Under the pieces are notes generated by a model. That model was given only the letters and a program-made list of their open reading frames with translations, did not search any database and was not told the DNA's origin. The translations under genes were made by a program, and so were the position numbers. Positions 2,741-44,651 of a DNA stretch of 45,190 bases are shown here, piece after piece (the first letter of the stretch is position 1; each line of letters starts with the position of its first letter). Origin of the DNA: a phage; sequence record PZ050807.1, one strand, 5' to 3'.

Positions 2741-2766
2741 AAAGGGGCCAAACGGCCCCTTTTTCA
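2741..2766. terminator. Bidirectional intrinsic terminator between convergent genes
   Basis: Hairpin AGGGGCC-AAAC-GGCCCCT (2743..2760) followed by TTTTT; A/T-rich on the other side. Confidence 0.7.
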
Positions 2767-3339
2767 TTGTGCGGATTCCCAGTCTATCTTTCGGCGTATT
2801 GTAGGACTTTCGAAATACTCTTTGCCGTCTACTTCAACCAAAGGCCAGTCGTTCACAATGGCGTATGGATCTGCGACCTCTTCGATTATGCCGGTGGCTT
2901 TATGCTGACCAAACCCTACCAGCACCAGAATCACCCCGGCAACGCGACGCTCCATATACTCGTATGCGCAACGTGCTTCAACCAGACCGCGACGGATGCC
3001 GGTAGTGGCCTTCACTTCGTACGACCAGACGGCATCAATAACTTGGTCTTTGTAATCCGGCCCTACTTTCACTTTGCGCTTACCAAGCATTACCACATCG
3101 CCACGGTTCATGGTGTTGCCGCTAAATAATCCGGTGCGCTGGAGTAAGCCTTGCGGGATGCAACTGCGACCGCCGGTTTGCCCTTCCAGATACATCCCTG
3201 CGAACATCTCGCCAAGTACACCAACGAGACGGCTTTGCTTGCACGCGTCGGAACGGTTACGCCAGTAGTCAAACTCAATGCTTGCAATCAACGATGCCAG
3301 ATGAAATGCTTTGCCAGATAATTCATATTCACCGTACAT
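2764..3339 (-). CDS. Hypothetical protein, 191 aa (last gene of the leftward early operon)
   Basis: Long ORF with RBS AAGGAG 8 nt upstream of the ATG at 3339; no motif recognised. Confidence 0.55.
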   Translation of the reverse strand: MYGEYELSGKAFHLASLIASIEFDYWRNRSDACKQSRLVGVLGEMFAGMYLEGQTGGRSCIPQGLLQRTGLFSGNTMNRGDVVMLGKRKVKVGPDYKDQVIDAVWSYEVKATTGIRRGLVEARCAYEYMERRVAGVILVLVGFGQHKATGIIEEVADPYAIVNDWPLVEVDGKEYFESPTIRRKIDWESAQ

Positions 3340-3383: not shown

Positions 3384-3854
3384 TTATTTAAGTGCGCCAG
3401 TCACCAGTGTTTTTTCCATGTTGCGGAAATCTTCCGGCGTCATGAGGATTTTCGACCCGTCTTCACCGTACAGCGTCACCAGCGGTTGAGCTTTCGCTAA
3501 AACTCCCTTCGGCAGCGACCACGCATCAACCTGTTTCTTCAGGCTTTCCAACTGCGCTGCCGTTACGTCGATCTGGATCTCGTCATGCACAGTTGTGTAA
3601 GACTCACCCAGTAGCGCGGAATATGCCACTAAATCCACAATGTTATCTTCCTGGTGTTTACGGGTCTGGCGTACCAGCTTCAGGCAAATCATAAATACCC
3701 AGGCTTCTTGCTCGGTAAGGTCCCGACCGGTTAGTGCGTTGAATACGGCAGCAATCTGTTTAGCGCTGCGTTCTTCTTTGCTGTCATATCCATTTTCTTT
3801 CCCGCGCTGTTCCATAGTGGTGGCGGCGTTTTTGCAGTATTCGAATGCTTTCAT
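3384..3854 (-). CDS. Hypothetical protein, 156 aa (possibly an all-alpha NTP-pyrophosphohydrolase-like fold; weak)
   Basis: ORF directly downstream of the early promoter at 3900..3928; the segment EQEAWVFMICLKLVRQ...DNIVDLVAY is faintly MazG-like. Confidence 0.5.
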   Translation of the reverse strand: MKAFEYCKNAATTMEQRGKENGYDSKEERSAKQIAAVFNALTGRDLTEQEAWVFMICLKLVRQTRKHQEDNIVDLVAYSALLGESYTTVHDEIQIDVTAAQLESLKKQVDAWSLPKGVLAKAQPLVTLYGEDGSKILMTPEDFRNMEKTLVTGALK

Positions 3855-3894: not shown

Positions 3895-3932
3895 TGGTTA
3901 ATATAGTGCAACCAAATACGGATTGCAACCAA
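3895..3932 (-). promoter_or_regulatory. Sigma70-type early promoter (minus strand): -35 TTGCAA, 17-nt spacer ending in ATTGGTTGCAC, -10 TATATT
   Basis: Read on the minus strand: TTGCAA(3928..3923)-17 nt-TATATT(3905..3900); two copies of the TTGGTTGCA motif. Confidence 0.55.
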
Positions 3933-4154: not shown

Positions 4155-4620
4155 GTAGTTCTCCTTCGCTCATTATCTTGATTTGTGCGCTGCCGTTTGG
4201 TGGCGCTTCTTCAAAGATTATCAATTGCTGACACTTGTTGTTGCTCGGTCCAACCTCGCCAGTGACGGCATGGATAAACCGGATCCGCCAGTCCAGCAAT
4301 ATAATCAGGTTGGCGGTTTTCCGCGCCAGTTTGGCCCACTTCGTGGTCGTGTCCTGGTTAAGCAGCATTACCGTTTTGCGACCCTGCGATGCGCAAGTCA
4401 CCCACGGCAGCGGGTCGGAATACGGCGGATTGCACCACTTCCACCCGTTTAACTCTGACCAGTCCGCATCAAGCGCGCTATGCTCTTTCGTGAAGTAGCG
4501 CGGTAGCAAATGGTTGTGGTCACTCGCCGCCATGTCGTAACGGAATTTAAACGCCTTGCGCAGTGGTTTGAATAAGGCTGGCGGAGTGCGCCAGCTATCC
4601 TTCTGCTCATTCTCCGTCAT
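4111..4620 (-). CDS. DNA N6-adenine methyltransferase, phage Dam-like
   Basis: NPPY catalytic motif (WCNPPYSD) and size typical of the phage N6A-MTase family; start set at MTENEQ (ATG 4620). Confidence 0.65.
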   Translation of the reverse strand: MTENEQKDSWRTPPALFKPLRKAFKFRYDMAASDHNHLLPRYFTKEHSALDADWSELNGWKWCNPPYSDPLPWVTCASQGRKTVMLLNQDTTTKWAKLARKTANLIILLDWRIRFIHAVTGEVGPSNNKCQQLIIFEEAPPNGSAQIKIMSEGELHEYLSRRSQSARRG

Positions 4621-5071
4621 GCTGCGGATCCAGTGCGTAAAGTGGGATCTGTTTGGCGCTTTCCCACAGGCGTTTAATCCTTTCCTGTTCGCCTTTACCC
4701 ATTGGGCGCATGTCCGTACTATAGTTGCCGTTGGTGGTGTCACGCCACGCGATCAGCACCAGGTCTTTACGGTCGATCTTCGTTGTTCGGCCTTTCGGAC
4801 GGACGTATTCTTCAGCACGTTTGCACTGCTCGCGTAGCCCTTCGGCGGTTATCCGGGTGAGCGATACGGATGTTGTGTACCCGGAGCGCTGCATAATGGT
4901 GATCAGTTCGCCCAGCAGTTCGAAGCGTTCCTCTAATTCCAGCAATTGCTTGTTGGTATCCTGGAATTTTTTATACATATCTTCGGCGTGGCTACGTGCT
5001 TCTTCCGCCTTCTCGCGGGCTTCCAGACACTGTGAAGCCCAGTACGCTTTTTCTTCTTGTAAAATTTTCAT
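4607..5071 (-). CDS. Hypothetical coiled-coil protein, 154 aa
   Basis: Charged helical sequence; start overlaps the upstream gene stop (ATGA). Confidence 0.5.
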   Translation of the reverse strand: MKILQEEKAYWASQCLEAREKAEEARSHAEDMYKKFQDTNKQLLELEERFELLGELITIMQRSGYTTSVSLTRITAEGLREQCKRAEEYVRPKGRTTKIDRKDLVLIAWRDTTNGNYSTDMRPMGKGEQERIKRLWESAKQIPLYALDPQHDGE

Positions 5072-5310
5072 TATTTAGTCTCCGTCATGCGAATCTCATT
5101 TTGTGGGATAAATTTGCCGTTCATCTCTACCCAGCAGGATCCGTACCGCCACTGGGTGTTACGACCGGTTTGCTCCGCATACACAGTCACGCATTCGTAC
5201 TTCTTGAAGTAATACGTGCAGGAGGAAGGCATAATGATGCAAAAAACAACTAATAGCATCCACACCCATAACCGCAAAGCACCGTCGTAATCTAAAAAGA
5301 ATCGTTTCAT
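5071..5310 (-). CDS. Small secreted or membrane protein, 79 aa, with its own early promoter
   Basis: Hydrophobic N-terminus (LRLWVWMLLVVFCIIMPSSC); RBS GAGGA; promoter directly upstream. Confidence 0.45.
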   Translation of the reverse strand: MKRFFLDYDGALRLWVWMLLVVFCIIMPSSCTYYFKKYECVTVYAEQTGRNTQWRYGSCWVEMNGKFIPQNEIRMTETK

Positions 5311-5352
5311 CGTCAAATCCTCATATTAAAAAAGGGCGTTCCCTTCAGAACA

Positions 5353-5390
5353 CCCCCAATATAATGCAACCAATCTCGCAATGCAACCAA
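5353..5390 (-). promoter_or_regulatory. Sigma70-type early promoter (minus strand) of the TTGGTTGCA family
   Basis: Minus strand: TTGCAT(5386..5381)-17 nt-TATATT(5363..5358); two TTGGTTGCA copies. Confidence 0.55.
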
Positions 5391-8288: not shown

Positions 8289-8327
8289 CTTAAATGCCTC
8301 GTTAGTCCTAACCTGCACACTATATCT

Positions 8328-8606
8328 TTATGCGACCAATTCCGCAACCAATAAATCAGCGTCGTGAATGTTGTCGATTACGCGAACGTCGGCCCCGCGC
8401 TTCGCCATGCGCTCATGTTCACGTACCTGGTGCGGCTTCGGCTTACCACCGGGGCGCTTCACTTCAACGAATACGACTCTGCCGTTGATGATGATAATCA
8501 GGTCGGGGGCGCCGGTACGCCCTTCCCATGCCATTTTACGGCAGAATCCACCTGCCTCTTTTACCTCTTTCATCAGGTGACTTTGCACCTTGCCTTCAGG
8601 AGTCAT
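8328..8606 (-). CDS. VRR-NUC domain nuclease
   Basis: PDLIIIINGRVVFVEVKRPGGKPKPHQ matches the VRR-NUC (PD-(D/E)XK) signature; TAATG overlap with the polymerase stop. Confidence 0.6.
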   Translation of the reverse strand: MTPEGKVQSHLMKEVKEAGGFCRKMAWEGRTGAPDLIIIINGRVVFVEVKRPGGKPKPHQVREHERMAKRGADVRVIDNIHDADLLVAELVA

Positions 8607-11891: not shown

Positions 11892-11987
11892 TTTCCAATT
11901 CCTCATTTCACATGTATCGGGGTTATTAGAAGCCACCCCGTCCGGCTTGGTTGCTAATGTACTTGGTTGCGTTTCCGCGGTCAAGTG

Positions 11988-14131: not shown

Positions 14132-14632
14132 TTAGTCTTCCAGTTCGAAATAGGTTTCGACAATTTCTTTCAGTTCGGTGTGGAAGTCTTCAACGTCGTC
14201 ATCTTCCAGCTTAGCCACAGTCTTGATTTCGAACGATTCCAGCAGGTCGTCAAATTCGTCGTTCGCGTCGTCATCGTCGCCGCCTGCAATGATTGCCGCG
14301 TATTGTGCAATTTCATCGCGCATTTCTTTCAGTGGATCGGCGTCTTTCTTAGCCTTGCCTTTGCCCTTGCCTTTGGCTGGCTTTTCTTCCGGTTCGTCTT
14401 CGTCGTCATCTTCTACGACTTCTTTTTTCGCCTTGCCCTTAGCCGTGGACTTCTTAGCAGGTTTCTTATCTTCCTGCTCGTCATCTTCGTCTTTGGCTTC
14501 TTCTTTCTTAGCCTTAGACGGTTTCTTATCTTCCTGCTTACCAACGGCAGCGCCATGGGTTTCGTAATGTTTAGCGATGGTTTCCAGTGCTACTACGCCG
14601 CGAGTAATCAGATTCAGGATTTGCTCAAACAT
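14132..14632 (-). CDS. Highly charged low-complexity protein (first gene of the leftward early operon)
   Basis: Start at MFEQIL (ATG 14632, RBS GGAGA); long K/E/D-rich region and acidic C-terminus (DDDDANDEFDDLLESF...EDDDVEDF). Confidence 0.5.
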   Translation of the reverse strand: MFEQILNLITRGVVALETIAKHYETHGAAVGKQEDKKPSKAKKEEAKDEDDEQEDKKPAKKSTAKGKAKKEVVEDDDEDEPEEKPAKGKGKGKAKKDADPLKEMRDEIAQYAAIIAGGDDDDANDEFDDLLESFEIKTVAKLEDDDVEDFHTELKEIVETYFELED

Positions 14633-14678
14633 GGTGTGTCTCCGTTTAGTTAAAAGTGAATGTCGTTTCGACGAGGTG

Positions 14679-14708
14679 AATAATAGATTGGTTGCAGGAT
14701 GGGTGTCA
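14679..14708 (-). promoter_or_regulatory. Leftward early promoter: -35 TTGACA, 18-nt spacer containing GCAACCAAT, -10 TATTAT
   Basis: Minus strand: TTGACA(14708..14703)-18 nt-TATTAT(14684..14679). Confidence 0.55.
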
Positions 14709-14715
14709 ACAACTA

Positions 14716-14753
14716 ATTTAAAAAAAAATCCCCGAAGCAAAACGCAACGGGGA
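14716..14753 (-). terminator. Terminator-like hairpin plus T-run (minus strand) upstream of the leftward promoter
   Basis: Minus strand: CCCCGTTGCGTTTTGCTTCGGGG followed by TTTTTTTTT. Confidence 0.4.
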
Positions 14754-14823
14754 TAACCATAAGAGACAATGAGACTGGTTTTATTATTACACGCGCGCGC
14801 ACCCGTTTCAATATACAAAACAG

Positions 14824-14852
14824 TTGACACCGGTTTAATTTGGGTGTAGTTT
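14824..14852 (+). promoter_or_regulatory. Candidate rightward promoter: TTGACA-17 nt-TAGTTT
   Basis: Consensus -35; weak -10. Confidence 0.35.
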
Positions 14853-14883
14853 CTTTGGTCATTAACCAACAGGAGACTGAATT

Positions 14884-15177
14884 ATGAATACGACTAAATT
14901 GAATGCTTTGTTAGATATGGTTGAGAATGGTGTTGATGTTGGTGCGGCCCGCGACGCTATTAACGTTGCGTTCAAAGACCTGGCCTACAAACTGGAATTA
15001 CTGAACGGTACGGCGGCGAGCAAGCTGCAAAAGCATAACGAAGAAATGGAAGAATACAAAAAGCAGGTTATCAGACTGCGCGAAGAGGGTAAGTCCTGGG
15101 CAATGATTGCCGAGCTAACAGGCATTAATCAAAGCACTGTACGCTCCTGGGTACGCAATGCTAAAACCGCTAAGTAA
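14884..15177 (+). CDS. Small HTH DNA-binding protein (putative transcriptional regulator)
   Basis: C-terminal helix-turn-helix SWAMIAELTGINQSTVRSWVRN; RBS AGGAGA. Confidence 0.55.
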   Translation: MNTTKLNALLDMVENGVDVGAARDAINVAFKDLAYKLELLNGTAASKLQKHNEEMEEYKKQVIRLREEGKSWAMIAELTGINQSTVRSWVRNAKTAK

Positions 15178-15189
15178 GGACTTGAGAAG

Positions 15190-17454
15190 ATGAGAAATAT
15201 AGAATTTGCGATCACACCCCCCGCTAAGAAAGGCGAATCTGCGGTAGCTCATAACCAGTCCATGACTACCGCCGAGTTTTTCGAATTTATCCAGGATGCA
15301 CCGGTAGTGTCGTCAGTTTGCATTAACGGTACTGAAGATAAAAAAGAATATGCGCGACGTAAGCGTAAAGGCGACGGCATTGTGGCTACAACCGCCGATG
15401 GCACGCGTAAAAAGACTGGCGTGGTTAGCCGCTCGATCCTGTTCTTCGACCTGGACCGTGCTGACAACCGCACACTTACCCGCTGCCGCAGGGCTTTCCG
15501 CAAGTCCGGCCTGGAATATGTCTACCACACCACCACCGGCGACCGCCACCCGTTGAAAGACGGCAAGCGCTGTGTGCGTTTCCTGGTGCTGACAAACAAG
15601 CCAGTTCCGGCGGAAGACTTGGGTCGCGCGCAGGCTGCACTGCTTGAGCAACTGGGTCTTACCGACGCGGGCTTTGATGACTGCTCGAAAGACACAAACC
15701 GCCTTATGTACCTGCCCCACCAGCAGGCTAAGGTCGAGTGTCATGAGGGTGAACGCGCTAACGTGCGTCGTCTGCTTCGCCTGGCTGACAAGATGGGTAT
15801 TGAGCAGGAAACGTTTCGCCGTGAACTGGTGCAGGGCGACGACGAGCAGATGAACGGCATCCTCGACTGGTGTTTCCAGGCTGGTTTTGAGCCGTTACCA
15901 TCCGGGCGCGGTTATGAAGTACCGTGCCCAAACGAACATCTGCACTCTGGTGAAGGGTCTACCGCTATCATGCTTAAGGATGGCGAGATTCGTTTCAAAT
16001 GTATGCACACCGGCAACGGATGCTGTTCTGAACTGAACAAACACCAACACCTGGCGCTGCGAATGATTGGTATCCCGGATATTTATAACGTGGAACCTCA
16101 CAACATGTCGCGCAAACAGATCTCGGCAATCCTGCCCGGACTGGACGATGAAGAAGTGGACGCGCAGTATGAGCACATGGTCGATCTGGTTGGCGAAGGT
16201 GAGGATTATGCGTCCTGTACTGACGCAGACCTGGAAGACGAACCAACGGCACTGTTCTCTAAACACGACCCGATCATCGAAGGTCTGATTAACTTCAAAT
16301 CGACCTGGTACGCAGCGGGTGAGTCGAACATTGGTAAATCCTTCTACATCCTGGGTCAGATGGCTGCCGTTGCCGCGGGCATCCCGTTCGGGGGCGCGAA
16401 GGTCGTCCAGTCGCATTGCTTCTACTTCGATGCGGAAGGTGGCGAGGCGTCCATCCAGCGTAAAGAAGCATTGCAGATTAAATATGAGCATGATCTTGAC
16501 AAGCTGCACATTGTTGACCTTCAGGCACGCGGCTGGGATATTACGAGCAAATCCGGCCTGCGTGAAGTAATCAGCTTTATCAACCGCACAGCGGATGGGG
16601 AACCGGTCGGCCTGGTGGCGTTCGACTCCCTTAACCAGACCGTGGCCCTGCGCTCGGCAGATGCCAAACCGTTCGACGAGAACAACGCAAGCGATATGGG
16701 TGAGATTGTCAAAGCGCTGAAGTCCATTGCGGAAAACACAGGAGGCAGTGCGGGCGTCATTCACCACCCGGCGAAGGGTGCAAACGGCAGCCGATCCCCG
16801 CGTGGGTCCGGTGCGCTACATGGCGCGGTGGATTCTGCATTCTTCCTGGAACAGCCAGACGAGAATCAGCCCGGACAGCTTAACCTGTATCATGAGAAAG
16901 CCCGTAACGGCGTAAAACAGGGTCCACGCGGCTTCGTACTACTTAAGTGCAAAGTGTCCATTAACGAGCGCAAGTCCGACACGTTCGAAGCGCACCAGTC
17001 CACTAACCCTGGTCCAGACTTCGGCGATGTGGTTGCCGGTTGGGACGTCAAGCCAATCCAGGCCACCCCGCGTGATGAGACTCTGTACCTTGTACCGGTA
17101 GCTCTGGCCCCGTTCGCTATCGAACAGGCGAAGGCCGCGGGCAAGCAGGCTGTTAAGGAAGAAAACCCCGCCGGTCCGCGCAATGAAAAAGAGAAAGTGC
17201 TTTACGCAGCGCTCGAAGCGTTGATGGAAGAGAATCCGGGACACCATGGCTTCAGCAAATCGGCAATCGTCCGCAAAGCCGGACTGGCGAAAGGTGGCAC
17301 ATCGACGAAGCCAATAGACGATATGCGTGAGCGCGGAATCATCGGCTTTTACAAAGACCCTGACACCGGGGCCATTTACGGGTCGTCGAATCTGGTTATC
17401 AATTCACAAATACCTATGCAATTGACGGCGACGGACGACGACCTTAAAGATTAA
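15190..17454 (+). CDS. DNA primase / replicative helicase fusion (primase-like N-terminal domain plus P-loop ATPase)
   Basis: Walker A GESNIGKSFYILG, Walker B LVAFDSLNQ; N-terminal primase-like region with Cys/His cluster (CPNEHLHSGEGS...CMHTGNGCC). Confidence 0.8.
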   Translation: MRNIEFAITPPAKKGESAVAHNQSMTTAEFFEFIQDAPVVSSVCINGTEDKKEYARRKRKGDGIVATTADGTRKKTGVVSRSILFFDLDRADNRTLTRCRRAFRKSGLEYVYHTTTGDRHPLKDGKRCVRFLVLTNKPVPAEDLGRAQAALLEQLGLTDAGFDDCSKDTNRLMYLPHQQAKVECHEGERANVRRLLRLADKMGIEQETFRRELVQGDDEQMNGILDWCFQAGFEPLPSGRGYEVPCPNEHLHSGEGSTAIMLKDGEIRFKCMHTGNGCCSELNKHQHLALRMIGIPDIYNVEPHNMSRKQISAILPGLDDEEVDAQYEHMVDLVGEGEDYASCTDADLEDEPTALFSKHDPIIEGLINFKSTWYAAGESNIGKSFYILGQMAAVAAGIPFGGAKVVQSHCFYFDAEGGEASIQRKEALQIKYEHDLDKLHIVDLQARGWDITSKSGLREVISFINRTADGEPVGLVAFDSLNQTVALRSADAKPFDENNASDMGEIVKALKSIAENTGGSAGVIHHPAKGANGSRSPRGSGALHGAVDSAFFLEQPDENQPGQLNLYHEKARNGVKQGPRGFVLLKCKVSINERKSDTFEAHQSTNPGPDFGDVVAGWDVKPIQATPRDETLYLVPVALAPFAIEQAKAAGKQAVKEENPAGPRNEKEKVLYAALEALMEENPGHHGFSKSAIVRKAGLAKGGTSTKPIDDMRERGIIGFYKDPDTGAIYGSSNLVINSQIPMQLTATDDDLKD

Positions 17455-17461
17455 AATTTGC

Positions 17462-17542
17462 GCGCATTGGTTGCCAATATGGTTAATTTGTGCGCGCATT
17501 GGTTGCCAGATTGGGCATTAAATCTATATCGCATTGGTTGCC
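17462..17542 (+). repeat. Three direct iterons GCGCATTGGTTGCC spaced about 35 bp apart (candidate origin or operator array)
   Basis: Repeat copies at 17462, 17494 and 17530, immediately after the primase-helicase stop. Confidence 0.6.
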
Positions 17543-17580
17543 GTGTAGTGCTAAATAAGTGAATAGTTATGCAAAATAAG

Positions 17581-17755
17581 TGCATAAAACAAACGGGACA
17601 AAAACGGGACAAACGACAAACGGGACAAAACGGGACGTCCCGCCGTCCCCCTCAGGAGTGGCGCGGGTTTGAGGCAAACGGGACAAGCGGGACAGACCAC
17701 AGTCTTTCAGACTAGACGGGGGGTATGGTCCCCCCTCCGTCTGAGACTGCATAAA
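17581..17755. repeat. Structured non-coding element A: ACGGGACA iterons, CGGGACGTCCCG palindrome and a long stem-loop; paralogue of 34104..34440
   Basis: Direct comparison with copy B: about 150 bp near-identical. Confidence 0.6.
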
Positions 17756-17907
17756 AGCTCTGGTTGCATAATCAACGGCAGCATAGTGAAAAATGCGGCG
17801 GGGGTAGATCTCGGCAACCAATGCGAGTTGAAGAGTGGAGAGTGAAAAATGCAGTTTGCAATTGCAACTCATAGCGATCAGCATTTTCATGCGCGTGATT
17901 AATATTG

Positions 17908-17936
17908 GTTGCACCCACCTTGGCACCTTGCTATAT
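17908..17936 (+). promoter_or_regulatory. Rightward promoter of the TTGGTTGCA family: -35 TTGCAC, 17 nt, -10 TATATT
   Basis: TTGCAC(17908..17913)-17 nt-TATATT(17931..17936). Confidence 0.5.
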
Positions 17937-17965
17937 TGGCTGCACACCATCATGAGGACTGAACA

Positions 17966-18292
17966 ATGAAAAAATTAATCTGGGTTTACGCGTTGGCGGT
18001 GGCTAAGGAGCAAGAAGCGGCAGCGTATATCACCCCGTGCAGTTATGCAGTCGAACGCTTGGAAGCGGCCCAGGCCGTTGTCCGGGTGATGAAGCGCGCA
18101 ATCATCGGTAGGCTGGAGGACCGATTCGACACGATGGCAGAGATCCAGCCACTGGCGAACGCAATCCAGGACTACGCGCTTGCATTTGCCCGTGAACGCC
18201 TGGCATACCGGTTTGGTATCGGGGAAACGGCAGTGGCTAACATCGCCCGCATTCAGGCCCAGCGTGAGCTGCACGCCATACTCGCGAAATAA
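17966..18292 (+). CDS. Hypothetical protein, 108 aa
   Basis: ORF downstream of the promoter. Confidence 0.5.
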   Translation: MKKLIWVYALAVAKEQEAAAYITPCSYAVERLEAAQAVVRVMKRAIIGRLEDRFDTMAEIQPLANAIQDYALAFARERLAYRFGIGETAVANIARIQAQRELHAILAK

Positions 18293-18571
18293 GTGGCCAA
18301 AATGACACGCAGACGCGCTCAATGGCTTTCATGGCACATTCCCCTACATAGCATCCGTTTATGGGCGCAGAACGCGATTGAGGGCGATTCTGTGTTCTGG
18401 AGCTATCTGGATGACGTCAAGCCGCTGACGCAGACCAGAAAGCTGCACCAGTTCATGAACGAACACGGACTGCCGGTGAAAACGTCATTGCAACCAATCG
18501 GCATCCGTATTACATTACGCCGTAAGCCAATCGTTGAGCAGGTTGGCAAACACAGGAGACTGACAAAATGA
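18293..18571 (+). CDS. Hypothetical protein, about 90 aa
   Basis: ORF; start is GTG 18293 or ATG 18302. Confidence 0.4.
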   Translation: MAKMTRRRAQWLSWHIPLHSIRLWAQNAIEGDSVFWSYLDDVKPLTQTRKLHQFMNEHGLPVKTSLQPIGIRITLRRKPIVEQVGKHRRLTK

Positions 18572-19164
18572 AATTGATCTTCCGCCATAAACATAATGGG
18601 CGATTCCTTACCCCAATCCAGGTGCTGCCGAACTATGTGCGCCTGCACCACGAAGCCAGCGACCGCGTATTCTGGTTTAAGAAAGCCACTCTGCCGAAAT
18701 ATTTGCAGGTTGTGCATCATGACGTCCGCGTCGGCGATGTGCTGCGGGATATTCGGGACGGTGCGCTGTTCGTAGTCCAGCGTGTGACTACCTTCGGCGT
18801 TGTACTGCAATGCGGAGCGATCCGACGCCGTCTATTTTCTGTCGGCCTGGTGAACTACACTCGCGTGGGCCGGAACTATGTGCCTAAGCAGTTCAAGCGC
18901 TACGACGCTAGCCAAGTCAACGCTCGCATGAATGCGACCCTTAATGACCTGATTGCGAAACAGGATGCCGTGACGAACGCACAGCGCCATGCGCAGGAAT
19001 ACGGTGTGGGATTCATCCGGGTAGAACGAGACGGCAGTATGACGTCCATCGACCCGCGCTCGACCCAACTGAAGATAGTCGAAGTGAGCAAATGTTGCCG
19101 GGCAGAAGTTGTGCGCGACCCCGGCGGGCAAGCCTTCTGTCGCGAGTGTGCGGGTGTGATATGA
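18568..19164 (+). CDS. Hypothetical protein, 198 aa, with C-terminal Cys cluster
   Basis: CCRAEV...CREC zinc-ribbon-like end. Confidence 0.5.
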   Translation: MKLIFRHKHNGRFLTPIQVLPNYVRLHHEASDRVFWFKKATLPKYLQVVHHDVRVGDVLRDIRDGALFVVQRVTTFGVVLQCGAIRRRLFSVGLVNYTRVGRNYVPKQFKRYDASQVNARMNATLNDLIAKQDAVTNAQRHAQEYGVGFIRVERDGSMTSIDPRSTQLKIVEVSKCCRAEVVRDPGGQAFCRECAGVI

Positions 19165-21085: not shown

Positions 21086-21091
21086 AGATCA

Positions 21092-21118
21092 AGCCCGCAA
21101 CTATGGCGGGCTTTTTAT
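21092..21118 (+). terminator. Intrinsic terminator
   Basis: AGCCCGC-AACTAT-GGCGGGCT followed by TTTTT. Confidence 0.65.
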
Positions 21119-21203
21119 TGCTTGACCTGCAACCAATTAATAGCTCATACTTCTGTCGCCGTGGTATATTGATCGCGGTCAAACTGAATCAGGAAAATAT
21201 ACG

Positions 21204-28449: not shown

Positions 28450-28479
28450 TGTTGTTTCCTCGTTTGTTGGTGTGCAACC

Positions 28480-28508
28480 AATATATTGCAACCAATTAGC
28501 CAATGCAA
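28480..28508 (-). promoter_or_regulatory. Early-type promoter (minus strand): -35 TTGCAT, 17 nt with ATTGGTTGCAA, -10 TATATT
   Basis: Minus strand: TTGCAT(28508..28503)-17 nt-TATATT(28485..28480). Confidence 0.5.
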
Positions 28509-34089: not shown

Positions 34090-34103
34090 TTCCGGCCTTT
34101 TTC
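34080..34103 (+). terminator. Intrinsic terminator after the GT chaperone ORF
   Basis: GGCCGG-GTAATT-CCGGCC followed by TTTTT. Confidence 0.6.
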
Positions 34104-34106
34104 ATA

Positions 34107-34430
34107 GCGGGACAGCGGGACGTCCCGTTTTTGTCCCGCTGTCCCGCCCCGCCAAAAACTGCATACCTATTCAGAAATACTGCATAAAACCAAAACGGGA
34201 CAAAAACGGGACAAGCAGGACGTCCCGCCTCAAAAGTGCATATCTATGCAGTTTTCATGCATAAAACGAACGGGACAAAAACGGGACAAACTGCAAGCGG
34301 GACAGAGCGGGACGTCCCGCCGTCCCTGCCAGAGCTGCCGCGGGTTTCAGCCGATCGGGACAGGCGGGACAAAGCCAAGTCTTTCAGACTAGACGGGGGT
34401 CAATGGCCCCCTCCGTCTGAGACTGAATAA
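34107..34430. repeat. Structured non-coding element B: GGGAC/GTCCC iterons, palindromes and a conserved stem-loop; paralogue of 17581..17755
   Basis: Several ACGGGACA iterons, three GGGACGTCCC palindromes, 13-bp inverted repeat GCGGGACAGCGGG/CCCGCTGTCCCGC, hairpin at 34378..34425. Confidence 0.6.
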
Positions 34431-34492
34431 GGTTGGTTGCAAAATGACTGATACAATACAAACGGCAACTTGCATAAAAAGGGGACTGCATA

Positions 34493-37135
34493 ATGGCAGA
34501 TCAAGCGGCAGGCATCACGCTAAAGGCGGATGTTGCACAAATCAGAACGGCGAATACTGTGCTTGATTCATTCGCACAGAAATCCGAGAACACAGAAAAC
34601 AAGGTTAAGAAGTTAAACAACACCCTCGGCAAATCTAAAAAGGTGACGAGTGATGCCGCTGGCGGAATGGAAAAGCTGGCGAACGAATCGCATCGAGCAG
34701 CCGATGGCATGACGAAACAGGAGCGACTCGCCAACCGGTTAGGCATGTCGACCAAAAACCTGGGCTTTGCCTCGCATAACGCCGCATTCCAGTTACAGGA
34801 TATAGCGGTTACGCTTGAGATGGGTATGCCGGTGCACCGCGTCATGCTTCAGCAGTTACCACAGCTTACTGGGGCGTTCGGTGGGTTTGGTAACACGCTG
34901 CGTTATGTTGCTGGCTTCCTCGGCCCAGTAGGGATCGGAATTGCAGCACTAACGGCAACGTTAGGCGTAGGGGTGGCAATTACGACACGTGCCGAAAACC
35001 AGGTAGCAGCGCTTAACAAGACGCTGGCGCTATCCGGTAACATTTCCGGCCTAACTGCAAACCAGATCCTGGTGCTATCCGAGAACGCCGAGCGCATGGG
35101 CGGGTCGTTCCGCAAGACGCGTGACACAATCCAGGCGCTGGCGGCGGCGGGTGTGAAAGCGGGTGCAGACTTCGGCACGCTGGCGAAAGTGGTGAATGAT
35201 TTTGCGAAGGTGTCCAGCCAGCCGATCGAGGATGTGGTCGCGGCGGTGGCGAAGCTGTCTACCGACCCGGTAGGTGGCTTGCGAGCATTGGCTGATAAGT
35301 ATCACGTCGTAAACGAAGCGCAGATCCAGCAGGTGCAGTCACTAGTGACGGCTGGTCGCGAAACCGAAGCGGTGGCGCTGGCTAACAAAACAGCCGCAGC
35401 GTCGTTTACCACTATGACCAATGAGATCAAGTCCAACATGGGTACGCTTGAGCGGTCGATGAACGTCGTTACATCGGCAGCTAAATCTATGTGGGATGCC
35501 ATCCTGGATGTTGGACGCGCGCAGTCCTCGAATGAGTCAGAGATGAAAGCGCGTGAATCATTGCAGCGACTGACCACGGCTTACTATGCCGAGATGAAAG
35601 CGGTAAACGCTGCCGGTGGGGTGATGACCGAAGCGCAGAAAGCGCGTATTAACATGCTTTACAGCGAACTGGTCGCCCAGGAGAAGGTGGTGGCGTCGCT
35701 CACCATGCGCAACCGTGCCGAGCGGGACAACGCCAGCGCCGCGGACGCAGCAGCAAAGGCGAACGAAGAGGCAAACCGCACCGCCCGCGACCGCGCTGCG
35801 TTTGAGAAGGAGTACGCAACCAACGCGAAGAGGCGCGCCGACGAGATCGCCCGCCTCAATTTGCTTAATAAGCGCGGCGTGATTGACGAGAAAGAGCTTG
35901 CCGAGGCGGTGAAGCAGGTAAACGAGCGTTACAAAGACCCCGCCCCGAAGAAGGCCGCCGCTGTTCGAGTCGATGCCGGGCTGAAAATGCTGGAAGTAGC
36001 ACGGAGCGAACTGGCACAGCTTCGTGAGTCTGGAAAGCAGATCGAAGCCAACTCCTCGACGCAGACCCGAACGCAACGCGCGCAAGCGGCCCTGAACAAG
36101 CTGATCGCGGATAATGAGCAGTTAATCGCCGCAAGCAAAGAAAGAGCACTAACGGCAGCCGAAAAGCAGCAGATGGTCGAATTCGGACGCGTGAAGGAAG
36201 TACGCGAGCAGATCGTCGAAGAAGCCAAATTGCTGGACGCGAAAGAGAAGCAGGTCAAGGCGCACGCGCAGATCGACGCCTTCGTTAAGAACCAGAACGC
36301 CGAGCTAAAAGCCACCGCGGCGGGCTATGCGCTTTCCACTCGCGAAGCGGCAAACCTGCGTGAAGAATTGCAGCTAATTGACCGCCTGAAGCGGGTGGGC
36401 GCTAGTGATGCCGATATTGATCTGGCGGTGTCTAAACTGCGCGAAGTGCAGGAAGCACAGACCGGTGCTAACGCCTCACTATGGGATGGATTCAGCCGTG
36501 GGCTTAAGGATAGCGTGGATGAAATGGGTAACGGCTATACGCAGATGGTATCGGCAACGAAATTTACATTCGGCGCTATGATGGACACGATGAATGAATT
36601 TTTCGAGACTGGTAAATTCAACGCGAAGGAAATGATTAAATCCATCCTGAGCGAATTTATCAAGCTGGCTACCTCGCAGGCGTTCAAGTCCGTAATCAAC
36701 GCATTCGGCGGTGACGGTGGGAAGAATGGTCTGTTCGGGGCAATCTTCTCCGGTCTGACGAAGAATGCCGACGGTGGAGCGTACGCTGGCGGCAACCTGT
36801 CCGCATATTCCGGTCAGATCGTAAGCCAGCCAACCTTTTTCAATTACGGCGTTAAGGCGTTCGCTAACGGCGCGGGATTGATGGGTGAGGCTGGGCCGGA
36901 GGCCATCATGCCGCTGAAGCGCGGGCCGGACGGTAAACTGGGCGTTGCCGCAAGTGGGGCTGGTGGTGGTATCGTCGTGACAACGAACGTGAACATGGGT
37001 ACAGGGCAGGCTGACACCAGCGTTAAAGGGACCGACCCGCGAATGGGGCAGGTATTCGGCAAGCAGATCACGGAAGCGGTTAAGGCCGAAATCGTGAAAG
37101 CGACTAAACCAGGTGGAGTACTTTACAAACGATGA
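34493..37135 (+). CDS. Tail tape measure protein
   Basis: 880 aa, coiled-coil rich, downstream of G/GT chaperones and upstream of tail-tip genes. Confidence 0.85.
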   Translation: MADQAAGITLKADVAQIRTANTVLDSFAQKSENTENKVKKLNNTLGKSKKVTSDAAGGMEKLANESHRAADGMTKQERLANRLGMSTKNLGFASHNAAFQLQDIAVTLEMGMPVHRVMLQQLPQLTGAFGGFGNTLRYVAGFLGPVGIGIAALTATLGVGVAITTRAENQVAALNKTLALSGNISGLTANQILVLSENAERMGGSFRKTRDTIQALAAAGVKAGADFGTLAKVVNDFAKVSSQPIEDVVAAVAKLSTDPVGGLRALADKYHVVNEAQIQQVQSLVTAGRETEAVALANKTAAASFTTMTNEIKSNMGTLERSMNVVTSAAKSMWDAILDVGRAQSSNESEMKARESLQRLTTAYYAEMKAVNAAGGVMTEAQKARINMLYSELVAQEKVVASLTMRNRAERDNASAADAAAKANEEANRTARDRAAFEKEYATNAKRRADEIARLNLLNKRGVIDEKELAEAVKQVNERYKDPAPKKAAAVRVDAGLKMLEVARSELAQLRESGKQIEANSSTQTRTQRAQAALNKLIADNEQLIAASKERALTAAEKQQMVEFGRVKEVREQIVEEAKLLDAKEKQVKAHAQIDAFVKNQNAELKATAAGYALSTREAANLREELQLIDRLKRVGASDADIDLAVSKLREVQEAQTGANASLWDGFSRGLKDSVDEMGNGYTQMVSATKFTFGAMMDTMNEFFETGKFNAKEMIKSILSEFIKLATSQAFKSVINAFGGDGGKNGLFGAIFSGLTKNADGGAYAGGNLSAYSGQIVSQPTFFNYGVKAFANGAGLMGEAGPEAIMPLKRGPDGKLGVAASGAGGGIVVTTNVNMGTGQADTSVKGTDPRMGQVFGKQITEAVKAEIVKATKPGGVLYKR

Positions 37136-37142
37136 TAAAATG

Positions 37143-37171
37143 GCCCTCACACACAACGTGAGGGCTTTTTT
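37143..37171 (+). terminator. Intrinsic terminator/attenuator after the tape-measure gene
   Basis: GCCCTCAC-ACACAAC-GTGAGGGC followed by TTTTTT. Confidence 0.65.
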
Positions 37172-37771
37172 ATGGCACAAGGTACAATCACAGTGACGAA
37201 TGGTAGTAAGACCGTCACAGGCGCGGGCACAGCGTTTTTAAGCGCATTGGGTAAGGTATTCGTGCTGGCCACCATCGACGGCAACGACTACATTGCTAAA
37301 ATCGCGTCATTCAACTCTAACACTTCAATCACACTGGTGGACAATTGGCCCGGACCGACTAAATCCGGCGCTGCATACGACTTGATTGAGGCGCACGACC
37401 AGCGGGCTAATGAGTGGCCCTACTATTGGCATATGCAATTGCAAGGCGGTGGCGACGTGCAGTTATCATTCCGCACCGAAGAATTGCAATTTGGCAACGG
37501 GTACGGGCAGAACATCGCAGATGGGCCGAACGCCGAGACGAAACAATTCCCGATCCAGTTTGTAGGCTTGACTAACGACAAGTGGAATAACCCTAAGCTG
37601 GTCTATAACTTCCTGCGCGCGCATTTTGTAAAGCCGTTTATTGTCACCGCGCCGGATGGGGAGAAGGGGCTCTACGTTGTAGAGCGGTCGAGCTTGTCGT
37701 ACACTGACAACGGACACTATACGGCAACCGTATCAGCGACACTTAAAACCGCAATTGGATTCGTGCAATGA
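37172..37771 (+). CDS. Minor tail / distal tail protein (gpM slot) with a fibre-like N-terminal domain
   Basis: Synteny; first ~70 aa paralogous to the N-terminus of the side tail fibre (44652..). Confidence 0.5.
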   Translation: MAQGTITVTNGSKTVTGAGTAFLSALGKVFVLATIDGNDYIAKIASFNSNTSITLVDNWPGPTKSGAAYDLIEAHDQRANEWPYYWHMQLQGGGDVQLSFRTEELQFGNGYGQNIADGPNAETKQFPIQFVGLTNDKWNNPKLVYNFLRAHFVKPFIVTAPDGEKGLYVVERSSLSYTDNGHYTATVSATLKTAIGFVQ

Positions 37772-44599: not shown

Positions 44600-44628
44600 A
44601 ATATAGTGCAACCAATACGTGATTGCAA
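44600..44628 (-). promoter_or_regulatory. Early-type promoter (minus strand): -35 TTGCAA, 17 nt with ATTGGTTGCAC, -10 TATATT
   Basis: Minus strand: TTGCAA(44628..44623)-17 nt-TATATT(44605..44600). Confidence 0.55.
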
Positions 44629-44651
44629 CCAATTTATGAGGAGTTTTCGCT

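What the first reader, a model, noticed from the sequence alone, without database searches (positions are those of the whole stretch)
3895..3932. Phage-specific early promoter family built on a TTGGTTGC(A/C) 9-mer
The 9-mer TTGGTTGC(A/C) or its complement occurs about 16 times, all in intergenic DNA: 3907, 3924, 5365, 5382, 14687, 17467, 17499, 17534, 17814, 17904, 21128, 28473, 28487, 34433, 44607, 44624. Chance expectation for a 9-mer on both strands in 45 kb is well below one. At five sites the arrangement is identical: TTGCA(A/T/C)-N7-ATTGGTTGCA(C/A/T)-TATATT, a near-consensus sigma70 promoter with the motif abutting the -10 (3895..3932, 5353..5390, 28480..28508, 44600..44628 on the minus strand; 17908..17936 on the plus strand). 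These promoters head the early operon segments and the two inverted cassettes inside the structural module. Elsewhere the motif is inverted or promoter-independent (14687, 21128, 17462..17542), which argues it is also a regulator-binding site.
Basis: seen in the sequence. Interest (0 to 1): 0.7.

Follow-up and report, generated by a model that had tools for sequence, protein, structure and literature searches.

The report
Conserved operator word in phage promoters
A 9-base word repeated about twenty times in this E. coli phage genome lies inside the core of nearly every promoter-like site of its non-structural genes and stays at the same places in related phages, so it is most likely the docking site of a still unidentified regulator that controls those promoters.

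Summary
TTGGTTGC(A/C) occurs 17 times against about 1 expected. The 8-mer core occurs 21 times, and 18 of those lie in the 5.8% of the genome that is non-coding.

The window is a complete Dhillonvirus genome, a virulent E. coli siphovirus. The sites are kept at orthologous positions in five other Dhillonvirus genomes, in four more divergent Dhillon-like contigs and in Edwardsiella phage eiAU. They are absent from the related Guernseyvirinae and from 14 other relatives.

Almost every copy lies in the core of a sigma-70-like promoter, in one of two arrangements:
- **Class 1:** the palindromic TTGCAA part of the word serves as the -35, and a second copy abuts the -10.
- **Class 2:** a better -35 (TTGAC-) with the word inverted in the spacer.

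Orientation and register vary, so the word is best read as an operator laid over the promoters, not as the RNA-polymerase recognition element. Repression by occlusion is the likeliest mechanism, but this is inferred.

The binding protein is unresolved. A 97-aa sigma-region-4-type HTH protein, the first gene of the rightward early operon, fits in Dhillonvirus, but eiAU has the motif without that protein. "Early" timing is untested. I found no description of the motif in the papers searched.

The parts
3900..3932 (-). Class-1 promoter ahead of genes 3384-3854 and 2764-3339. Motif copies at 3924-3932 and 3907-3915, 17 bp apart; -35 TTGCAA at 3923-3928; -10 TATATT at 3900-3905.
   Evidence: (9 of 12). 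In Ioannina, BF9, rolling and CHD5UKE2 the upstream copy is inverted but still supplies TTGCAA. In Bas84 both copies are inverted.
5358..5390 (-). Class-1 promoter ahead of 5071-5316 and 4607-5071. Motif copies at 5382-5390 and 5365-5373; -35 TTGCAT; -10 TATATT at 5358-5363.
   Evidence: The same pair is present in BF9, Bas84, rolling and CHD5UKE2.
8319..8351 (-). Promoter ahead of the Lar-like zinc-ribbon gene. Motif TTGGTTGCG at 8343-8351; degenerate copy TTGGTCGCA at 8331-8339; -35 TTGCGG; -10 TATAGT at 8319-8324.
   Evidence: Conserved in all five Dhillonvirus genomes (block C). eiAU has a motif pair ahead of the orthologous gene.
11947..11984 (-). Class-2 promoter ahead of the ssDNA-binding/annealing gene. 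-35 TTGACC at 11979-11984; -10 TACATT at 11956-11961. Two inverted motif copies, 11963-11970 in the spacer and 11947-11954 just after the -10.
   Evidence: 9 of 12; block D. eiAU has a motif ahead of its orthologue.
14680..14709 (-). P_L, the main leftward early promoter: TTGACA-N18-TATTAT, with the motif inverted in the spacer (14688-14696 on the + strand).
   Evidence: 11 of 12; block E. In divergent Dhillon-like contigs two overlapping inverted copies fill the spacer.
14824..14869 (+). P_R, the rightward early promoter: TTGACA 14824-14829, N17, TAGTTT 14847-14852. A degenerate operator TTGGTCATTAACCAA lies at 14855-14869, just after the -10.
   Evidence: In L160, L162, L164 and L165 a full inverted motif occupies this place.
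14884..15177 (+). Candidate regulator gene: a 97-aa protein with a long helix and a C-terminal HTH of the sigma-70 region 4 / LuxR / transposase type. It is the first gene of the P_R operon.
   Evidence: Pfam Sigma70_r4_2, 31.4 bits, cut-off 25.7. (found only in Dhillon-like phages). (C-terminal 60 residues nearly invariant). (model pLDDT 85.5). Weakened: eiAU lacks it.
17451..17543 (+). Three direct 26-nt repeats, TTAAA..(T)GCGCGCATTGGTTGCC(A/G), spaced 32 and 35 bp, directly after the helicase-primase stop codon. The motif is the C-ended variant, at 17467, 17499 and 17534. A promoter-like TTGCCA-N16-TATATC lies at 17503-17530.
   Evidence: The equivalent arrays are present in the other Dhillonvirus genomes. 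eiAU has about 10 copies in the matching gap.
17812..17826 (-). Inverted copy CGGCAACCAATGCGA, a perfect 15-nt inverted repeat of 17529-17543. Together they bracket the ACGGGACA repeat array.
   Evidence: I2, 100% complementary, 268 nt between the arms.
17905..17944 (+). Class-1 promoter ahead of the rightward cluster starting at 17966. Motif at 17905-17913; -35 TTGCAC at 17909-17914; degenerate spacer copy; -10 TATATT at 17932-17937; degenerate start-site copy TTGGCTGCA at 17936-17944.
   Evidence: In the other genomes the start-site copy is a perfect TTGGTTGCA.
18488..18516 (+). Promoter-like site inside the 3' end of gene 18293-18571. -35 TTGCAA comes from the inverted motif (18489-18497); N17; -10 TACATT at 18511-18516. 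It lies ahead of gene 18568-19164.
   Evidence: It is the conserved block (block I).
21122..21151 (+). Class-2 promoter after the terminator at 21091-21113 and ahead of the phosphoesterase gene. TTGACC-N18-CATACT, with the inverted motif (21128-21136) directly after the -35.
   Evidence: 9 of 12. BF9, Bas84, rolling and CHD5UKE2 have two inverted copies here.
28473..28508 (-). Class-1 promoter of the reversed nmad5 cassette. -35 TTGCAT at 28503-28508; motif at 28487-28495 abutting the -10 TATATT (28480-28485); second motif at 28473-28481 overlapping the -10 and the start site.
   Evidence: It is the best conserved block (block K). The same layout occurs in L167.
34433..34441 (+). Motif copy with no recognisable promoter. 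It follows a hairpin element that is paralogous to 17712-17768 and lies ahead of the tape-measure gene.
   Evidence: Present only in the window and its closest relative, Ioannina.
44600..44632 (-). Class-1 promoter of the reversed lipoprotein / membrane-protein cassette. Motif copies at 44624-44632 and 44607-44615; -35 TTGCAA; -10 TATATT at 44600-44605.
   Evidence: (9 of 12). The other genomes keep only the upstream copy and have TAATAC as the -10 (block N).

Best explanation
(A)TTGGTTGC(A) is an operator: the recognition site of one sequence-specific DNA-binding protein, probably encoded by the phage. It is laid over the core of about a dozen host-type (sigma-70) promoters that drive the non-structural genes.

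**Shown.**
- The word is strongly enriched and almost confined to non-coding DNA.
- It stays at orthologous positions while flanking DNA diverges.
- It overlaps the -35, the spacer or the start site of conserved promoter-like hexamer pairs.
- Its orientation and register relative to those hexamers vary.

**Inferred.**
- A protein bound there would exclude RNA polymerase, so the element turns these promoters down together.
- This would resemble a Cro-like shut-down of early and middle transcription, spread over the whole non-structural gene set.
- The TTGCAA inside the word is palindromic and serves as a usable -35 in either orientation. This is why operator and promoter have fused.

**Candidate binder in Dhillonvirus.** The 97-aa HTH protein is made first from P_R, and P_R itself carries a weaker copy just after its -10. 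That is an autoregulation layout.

**Second possible role.** The dense array after the helicase-primase gene may act at the replication origin.
For: - **Enrichment:**
- **Other genomes:** 20-22 copies at the same intergenic places in five other Dhillonvirus genomes that share about 80% nucleotide identity with the window.
- **Conservation:** motif columns are 92% invariant against 68% for the other aligned columns, Fisher P 1e-5.
- **Divergent lineages:** the motif is kept in Dhillon-like contigs whose helicase-primase is 66-69% identical.
- **eiAU:** 23 copies against 2.2 expected, with 42% helicase-primase identity. Copies lie ahead of the orthologous ssDNA-binding and zinc-ribbon genes, in the gap after the helicase-primase gene and ahead of a reversed gene.
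- **Variable orientation and register:**. The same dam-side promoter uses direct, inverted or doubly inverted copies in different genomes.
- **P_L:** the spacer is fully filled by two inverted copies in divergent lineages.
- **P_R:** an operator follows the -10, degenerate in the window and perfect in divergent lineages.
- **HTH protein:**
Against: - No binding protein is identified.
- eiAU carries the motif but has no homologue of the HTH protein. Its syntenic gene is an XRE-type HTH that resembles the one in motif-free Shemara.
- eiAU has no motif in its divergent early control region.
- No transcription start sites or time-course data exist, so promoter function and the sign of regulation are inferred from sequence only.
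- Generic sigma-70 consensus hits in this genome are no more frequent than in shuffled sequence. The promoter calls therefore rest on conservation and position.
- A general repressor would also hit 17909 and 21122, which probably feed the lysis and packaging genes.
Confidence: 0.5

Rival explanations
1. Positive element. The word is bound by a phage factor that recruits or retargets host RNA polymerase to these promoters. This would be a MotA-box-like or Mor-like activator site that compensates for the weak -35 (TTGCAA, TTGCAT, TTGCAC).
For: - In class-1 promoters the word always covers the -35 position, and that -35 matches only 3-4 of 6.
- P_R, which would have to fire first, has a consensus TTGACA and only a degenerate copy.
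- The first P_R product is a small HTH protein with a sigma region 4-type fold.
Against: - Copies in the spacer, abutting the -10 or over the start site are places where activators do not normally work.
- Class-2 promoters already have TTGAC- at the -35 and carry the word inverted in the spacer.
- Orientation at one and the same promoter flips between genomes.
Confidence: 0.15
2. Initiator site. The word is the iteron of the phage replication initiator, for example the C-terminal winged-helix part of the helicase-primase. It would be used mainly at an origin next to that gene. The promoter copies would couple transcription to initiator level, as DnaA boxes do.
For: - The densest clusters in both genera lie directly after the helicase-primase gene. 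The window has three 26-nt direct repeats plus an inverted copy bracketing about 270 bp. eiAU has about 10 copies in a 900-bp gap.
- All C-ended variants (TTGGTTGCC) are confined to that region.
- The helicase-primase has a C-terminal extension of about 100 residues.
Against: - That C-terminal part is the least conserved region between Dhillonvirus and eiAU, although the motif is identical.
- A different repeat family (ACGGGACA) in the same gap is an equally good iteron candidate.
- Most copies are single or paired at promoters far from this region.
- This reading does not exclude the operator reading.
Confidence: 0.12
3. Host factor site. The word is recognised by a DNA-binding protein shared by E. 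coli and Edwardsiella, and these phages exploit it.
For: - The identical 8-mer core is found in two genera with different hosts and non-homologous early HTH proteins.
- No phage protein shared only by the motif-bearing lineages looks like a DNA-binding regulator.
Against: - I could not match the word to any E. coli regulator site that I know of. This rests on recall, not on a database test.
- The base before the core differs between genera: A in 72% of Dhillonvirus sites and G in 68% of eiAU sites. This fits a diverging phage factor at least as well.
- The word is not enriched in a 50-kb E. coli sample.
- Guernseyvirinae relatives, which also infect E. coli, Salmonella and Raoultella, do not use it.
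Confidence: 0.12
4. No extra factor. The copies are paralogous pieces of one ancestral strong promoter that spread by duplication, and they are read by sigma-70 polymerase alone.
For: - Four sites share an almost identical 30-bp layout.
- The word contains a -35-like TTGCAA.
Against: - There are inverted copies in spacers, copies after the -10 and arrays without a promoter.
- The 8-mer is invariant while the rest of each spacer diverges.
- It has been retained for the whole time since the Dhillonvirus and eiAU lineages split.
Confidence: 0.06

Closest known systems
Phage P1 C1 repressor operators (from my own knowledge; not tested here)
   Same: An asymmetric operator word is scattered at a dozen or more places over the whole phage genome. 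It occurs singly or in pairs and in either orientation, and it overlaps the promoters of many separate operons.
   Different: P1 is temperate, its operator is 17 bp and its repressor is known. Here the phage is virulent, the conserved core is 8-10 bp, part of it doubles as the -35 and the binder is unknown. No C1 homologue was seen in the family scans.
Lambda Cro with O_R and O_L (from my own knowledge)
   Same: A small HTH protein is encoded as the first gene of the rightward early operon, next to a divergent leftward promoter. Operators overlap both promoters, and the layout would turn down early transcription and autoregulate.
   Different: Lambda operators are 17-bp palindromes at two loci and are bound by a Cro/CI-fold dimer. 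Here the word is asymmetric and sits at about a dozen promoter regions. The candidate has a sigma-region-4 / LuxR-type HTH after a long helix.
T4 middle promoters with the MotA box (from my own knowledge)
   Same: A phage-specific word replaces the -35 of otherwise sigma-70-type promoters that keep a good -10.
   Different: The MotA box has a fixed position (about -30) and a fixed orientation, and it needs AsiA. Here position and orientation vary and copies also occupy the spacer and start site.
DnaA boxes, and iteron origins next to helicase-primase genes such as P4 alpha ori/crr and SaPI ori (from my own knowledge)
   Same: An asymmetric 9-mer is clustered in a non-coding stretch beside the replication gene and also occurs at promoters.
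   Different: The sequence is unrelated to the DnaA box (4 of 9 positions). Origin function and the binding protein are untested. A second repeat family shares the region.
KorA/KorB global regulons of IncP plasmids (from my own knowledge)
   Same: One short operator is repeated at most promoters of a small replicon, which gives coordinate control.
   Different: That system is on a plasmid, not a phage. Its operators are palindromic and its proteins are known.

Membership tests
Sigma-70-type bacterial promoter | -35 and -10 hexamers resembling TTGACA and TATAAT, separated by 16-18 bp | tested here: met
   Twelve sites match 8-11 of 12 with 17-18-bp spacers. The hexamers are conserved across genomes. 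Consensus hits as such are not above chance in this genome.
Sigma-70-type bacterial promoter | A transcript 5' end 6-8 nt after the -10 | not testable with these tools
   No transcript data for any Dhillonvirus start site were found.
Repressor operator | The site overlaps the core promoter (-35 to +20), so that a bound protein excludes polymerase | tested here: met
   Copies lie at the -35, in the spacer or at the start site of 12 promoter-like sites.
Repressor operator | A cognate DNA-binding protein is encoded with it and co-varies with it | tested here: inconclusive
   The HTH protein co-occurs with the motif in all Dhillon-like lineages. eiAU has the motif without it.
Repressor operator | Binding lowers transcription | not testable with these tools
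   This needs reporter assays or in-vitro transcription.
MotA-box-type activator element | Fixed position and orientation relative to the -10 | tested here: not met
   Orientation flips at the same promoter between genomes. Copies occur from the -35 to the start site.
Sigma-54 promoter | GG and GC doublets separated as in TGGCAC-N5-TTGC | tested here: not met
   Read directly from the sequences. No copy or pair of copies gives that spacing.
Iteron-type replication origin | Several direct repeats beside the initiator gene | tested here: met
   Three 26-nt direct repeats at 17451-17543, directly after the helicase-primase gene, plus an inverted copy. eiAU has an analogous cluster.
Iteron-type replication origin | Replication starts there and the initiator binds the repeats | not testable with these tools
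   GC skew only follows gene orientation.
Known RNA family | A match to an Rfam model in the motif-rich non-coding regions | tested here: not met
   No Rfam match at gathering score and no tRNA in the window.

The most novel reading that the evidence does not exclude
The word is the site of an uncharacterised global regulator that both shuts all non-structural promoters and marks the replication origin beside the helicase-primase gene. It would be a DnaA-box-like dual-purpose element of a virulent phage, older than the split of Dhillonvirus and Eiauvirus. In Dhillonvirus it would be read by an orphan sigma-region-4-like HTH protein. In eiAU a non-homologous protein would have taken over an identical site set.
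Probability: 0.12. Interest if true: 0.65.

Novelty: new member of a known kind. Interest (0 to 1): 0.45.

Why it matters
Dhillonviruses are common, well-sampled virulent coliphages. They are part of the BASEL collection, are used as phage-therapy candidates and are engineered against defence systems. I found no description of their transcription programme.

This word gives a ready map of about a dozen promoter regions and a testable model of coordinate control: one factor acting on one operator word. It also gives two practical handles.
- The promoter-operator cassettes can be reused or avoided when these phages are engineered.
- A simple pull-down with the word should identify a new regulator.

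The case is ordinary in kind, since phage regulons built on a repeated operator are well known. It is unusually clean, and it is conserved across two genera.

Tried and rejected
1. **Nmad5 as the binder.** It is one of the few non-structural proteins shared only by the motif-bearing lineages. Its model (pLDDT 72.5) has no fold match in the PDB. An nmad5 deletion phage was constructed and plated in spot tests, according to PMC11846954. I dropped it as a lead.
2. **DUF6378 protein, Dam and HNH.** They have the same phylogenetic profile, but nothing suggests sequence-specific regulation.
3. **Co-variation between the HTH recognition helix and position 9 of the motif.** INQ, INV and INR helix variants were compared. 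There is no consistent shift.
4. **Helicase-primase C-terminal domain.** It is no more similar between the window and eiAU than between the window and motif-free Shemara.
5. **Collection-wide pattern scans for motif pairs.** They returned scattered, apparently unrelated hits and were uninformative.
6. **Intermediate lineages.** The search for related loci returned 14 relatives at 37-45% identity without the motif and one eiAU-like contig with it.
7. **Literature.** There was no relevant hit for the sequence. The Dhillonvirus, HK578 and eiAU papers I found do not describe promoters or repeats.
8. **Sigma-54, DnaA box, CytR, PdhR/GntR-type, NtrC, BirA and RutR sites.** I compared these from memory. 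None fits, and this is a lead-level check only.
9. **RNA hairpin reading of TTGGT-N5-ACCAA at transcript starts.** The hairpin is weak (-3 kcal/mol, z -1.0).

Full report
**What the window is**

The 45,190-base window is a complete, circularly permuted genome of a Dhillonvirus, an HK578/SO-1-like virulent siphovirus of E. coli. It is 97-99% identical to Dhillonvirus LM40P1 and to Escherichia phage Ioannina, and about 80% identical to many other members of the genus.

Gene order, taken from the annotated relatives:
- a leftward replication and modification operon, about 14.6 kb down to 2.7 kb
- a rightward operon from 14.9 kb: a small HTH protein, the helicase-primase, small genes and the lysis genes
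- the packaging, head and tail genes, 22.6-43.4 kb, interrupted by two reversed cassettes: nmad5 at 27.7-28.5 kb and a lipoprotein / membrane-protein pair at 43.4-44.6 kb

**The observation**

TTGGTTGC(A/C) occurs 17 times. Dinucleotide shuffles gave a mean of 0.95, and none of 100 reached 17. The 8-mer core occurs 21 times against 2.0 expected from a third-order model.

On my gene map 5.8% of the genome is non-coding. That fraction holds 18 of the 21 core copies (P about 6e-20).

Of the three copies in coding DNA:
- 8344 and 18489 lie in the last codons of genes and belong to promoter-like sites for the next gene.
- 35816, in the tape-measure gene, is probably chance.

**Conservation**

Five other Dhillonvirus genomes carry 20-22 copies each, at the same intergenic positions. 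In alignments of six such regions the motif columns are invariant in 66 of 72 cases, against 490 of 720 for the other columns (Fisher P 1e-5). The conserved islands are the word, the -10 and the -35. The rest of each spacer drifts.

Four more divergent Dhillon-like metagenomic contigs, with helicase-primase 66-69% identical, keep the word at the same places.

Edwardsiella phage eiAU belongs to genus Eiauvirus, and its helicase-primase is only 42% identical. It has 23 copies against 2.2 expected. Several lie at orthologous places:
- ahead of the ssDNA-binding gene
- ahead of the small zinc-ribbon gene
- in the long gap after the helicase-primase gene
- ahead of the scaffold gene
- ahead of a reversed gene in the tail region

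The word is absent from relatives and from the host sample:
- the related Guernseyvirinae: Shemara 1 copy, RP180 1, Bas76 4, against about 1.5 expected
- 14 further relatives from IMG/VR
- a 50-kb sample of E. coli K-12, with 2 copies

**Anatomy**

Almost every copy lies in the core of a sigma-70-like hexamer pair (coordinates checked).

*Class 1.* The -35 is TTGCA(A/T/C), taken from the word itself. A second copy fills the spacer and ends one base before the -10 TATATT. The sites are:
- 3900-3932
- 5358-5390
- 28480-28508
- 44600-44632 (all four above on the minus strand)
- 17909-17937, plus strand, where the spacer copy is degenerate
- 18488-18516, plus strand

At 28480, and at 17932 in the other genomes, a third copy overlaps the -10 and the start site.

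TTGCAA is its own reverse complement, so an inverted copy supplies the same -35. At the promoter corresponding to 3900 the upstream copy is direct in the window. It is inverted in Ioannina, BF9, rolling and CHD5UKE2, and both copies are inverted in Bas84.

*Class 2.* The -35 is TTGAC(A/C) and the word lies inverted in the spacer:
- P_L at 14680-14709 (11 of 12)
- 11956-11984 (9 of 12), with a second inverted copy just after the -10
- 21122-21151 (9 of 12)

In the divergent lineages two overlapping inverted copies fill the whole P_L spacer.

*P_R.* TTGACA-N17-TAGTTT at 14824-14852 has only a degenerate TTGGTCATTAACCAA after its -10 in the window. A perfect inverted copy sits there in the divergent lineages.

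*Exceptions.* The only copies without a hexamer pair are 34433, 17813 and parts of the array at 17451-17543.

*Caveat.* Generic consensus hits are no more frequent in this genome than in shuffled sequence: 16 against 12.2, 12 against 10.0 and 9 against 9.5. The promoter calls rest on position before genes and on conservation, not on consensus score. Class-1 promoters match 8-9 of 12, which is fair and not near-consensus.

**Mechanism**

Orientation and register vary, and many copies occupy the spacer or the start site. The word therefore cannot be an element read by RNA polymerase. It behaves as an operator for a separate protein that recognises an asymmetric site of about 9-10 bp as a monomer or as a flexible dimer. 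Copy spacings of 9, 12, 14, 16, 17, 23 and 32-35 bp occur, in direct or inverted orientation.

A protein on these positions would exclude polymerase. I therefore favour coordinate repression of the non-structural promoters (confidence about 0.5). This step is inferred. No transcript or binding data exist.

**The binder**

*The 97-aa HTH protein (14884-15177).* This is the only recognisable DNA-binding protein among the early genes.
- Pfam Sigma70_r4_2 scores 31.4 bits against a cut-off of 25.7.
- The model has a long helix at residues 19-67 followed by a tri-helical HTH. The HTH superposes on IstA, LuxR/GerE and CENP-B type domains, but with non-significant E-values.
- It is the first gene transcribed from P_R, its last 60 residues are almost invariant, and it is found only in Dhillon-like phages.
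- This gives a Cro-like layout: divergent P_L and P_R, operators on both, and the regulator made first.

*The objection from eiAU.*
- eiAU has no homologue; the best E-value in a six-frame profile search was 0.3.
- Its syntenic gene is an XRE-type HTH that resembles the one in motif-free Shemara.
- Its divergent early region has no copy of the word.
- No other HTH was found among the small proteins of eiAU.

*Other candidates.*
- The non-structural proteins shared only by the two motif-bearing lineages are Nmad5, a DUF6378 protein, Dam and an HNH nuclease.
- Nmad5 has no recognisable fold. An nmad5 deletion phage was constructed and plated in spot tests, according to PMC11846954.

*Host factor.* A host factor remains possible. 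The base before the core differs between the genera: A in 72% of Dhillonvirus sites and G in 68% of eiAU sites. That suggests a diverging phage factor at least as much as a host one.

The binder is therefore unresolved.

**The array after the helicase-primase gene**

Directly after the stop codon at 17454 there are three 26-nt direct repeats, each ending in CGCATTGGTTGCC, at 17451-17543. A perfect 15-nt inverted copy lies at 17812-17826. Together they bracket a different repeat family (ACGGGACA, about 7 copies) and a hairpin.

All C-ended variants of the word lie here, in every lineage examined. eiAU has about 10 copies in the corresponding 900-bp gap.

This looks like an origin next to its initiator gene, as in P4 or SaPI elements (my own knowledge). 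A second, replication-linked role of the word is plausible but untested.

**Comparison and novelty**

In kind this is a known thing: one operator word repeated over a small replicon to give coordinate control. The nearest parallels, all from my own knowledge, are:
- the dispersed asymmetric C1 operators of phage P1
- lambda Cro at O_R and O_L
- the KorA/KorB regulons of IncP plasmids

It is not a MotA-box type element, because fixed position and orientation were tested and not met. It is not a sigma-54 promoter.

I found no description of the motif, or of Dhillonvirus or Eiauvirus promoters, in the searchable literature.

I rate it a new member of a known kind with moderate interest (0.45). 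It is a clean, conserved and directly testable regulon in a widely used phage genus, but not a new principle.

Noticed in passing
window 14712-14811 (minus strand): Candidate small RNA between P_R and P_L. The promoter is TTGAAA-N17-TG-AATAAT (10 of 12), back-to-back with P_R. About 55-65 nt downstream there is a hairpin plus T9 terminator (-16 kcal/mol, z -3.9), and its stem shows compensatory changes in BF9, Bas84 and rolling. The 5' part contains CAGUCUC, which is complementary to GAGACUG at the ribosome-binding site of the HTH gene (14873-14879) and in the tails of the two hairpin elements.
   Followed up: partly
window 5326-5363 (minus strand): The promoter at 5358-5390 lies upstream of a strong hairpin plus T-run (5357-5326, -16.2 kcal/mol, z -4.6, with compensatory changes in BF9). 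A start about 7 nt after TATATT would fall inside the 5' arm. Read-through transcripts would then terminate, while transcripts from this promoter would escape.
   Followed up: partly
window 17567-17700 and 34100-34392: A second repeat family, (A/G)CGGGACA with GGGACGTCCC palindromes and TGCATAAAA words, forms two paralogous arrays. One follows the helicase-primase gene and one precedes the tape-measure gene. Each array ends in a similar hairpin, ...CCCCCTCCGTCTGAGACTG(C/A)ATAA..., followed by (T/C)TGGTTGCA. These are candidate iterons or another regulator's sites.
   Followed up: partly
whole window, mostly coding DNA; also L126, L127, L128, L129 and the IMG/VR loci L146-L159: The 8-mer family G[CT]TGCCGT (complement ACGGCA[AG]C) occurs 49 times against about 9 expected. 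Related words (CGGCAGC, ACGGCAAC) are among the most over-represented in every relative examined, including those without the TTGGTTGC word. In the late region 19 of 25 copies have ACGGCARC on the coding strand. Unexplained.
   Followed up: no
window 14884-15177 and homologues (alignments A2, A3): The N-terminal 35-50 residues of the HTH protein are hypervariable and are replaced outright between isolates, giving forms of 89 to 149 aa. The C-terminal 60 residues are nearly invariant.
   Followed up: partly
L001 (Ioannina) 36723-37457; window 14132-14869: The public annotation of Ioannina extends the first leftward gene with a TTG start across the P_L promoter and its operator. Other annotated genomes and the conserved ATG at 14632 indicate a product of about 166 aa. 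This protein is extremely acidic and lysine-rich, and is probably disordered.
   Followed up: partly
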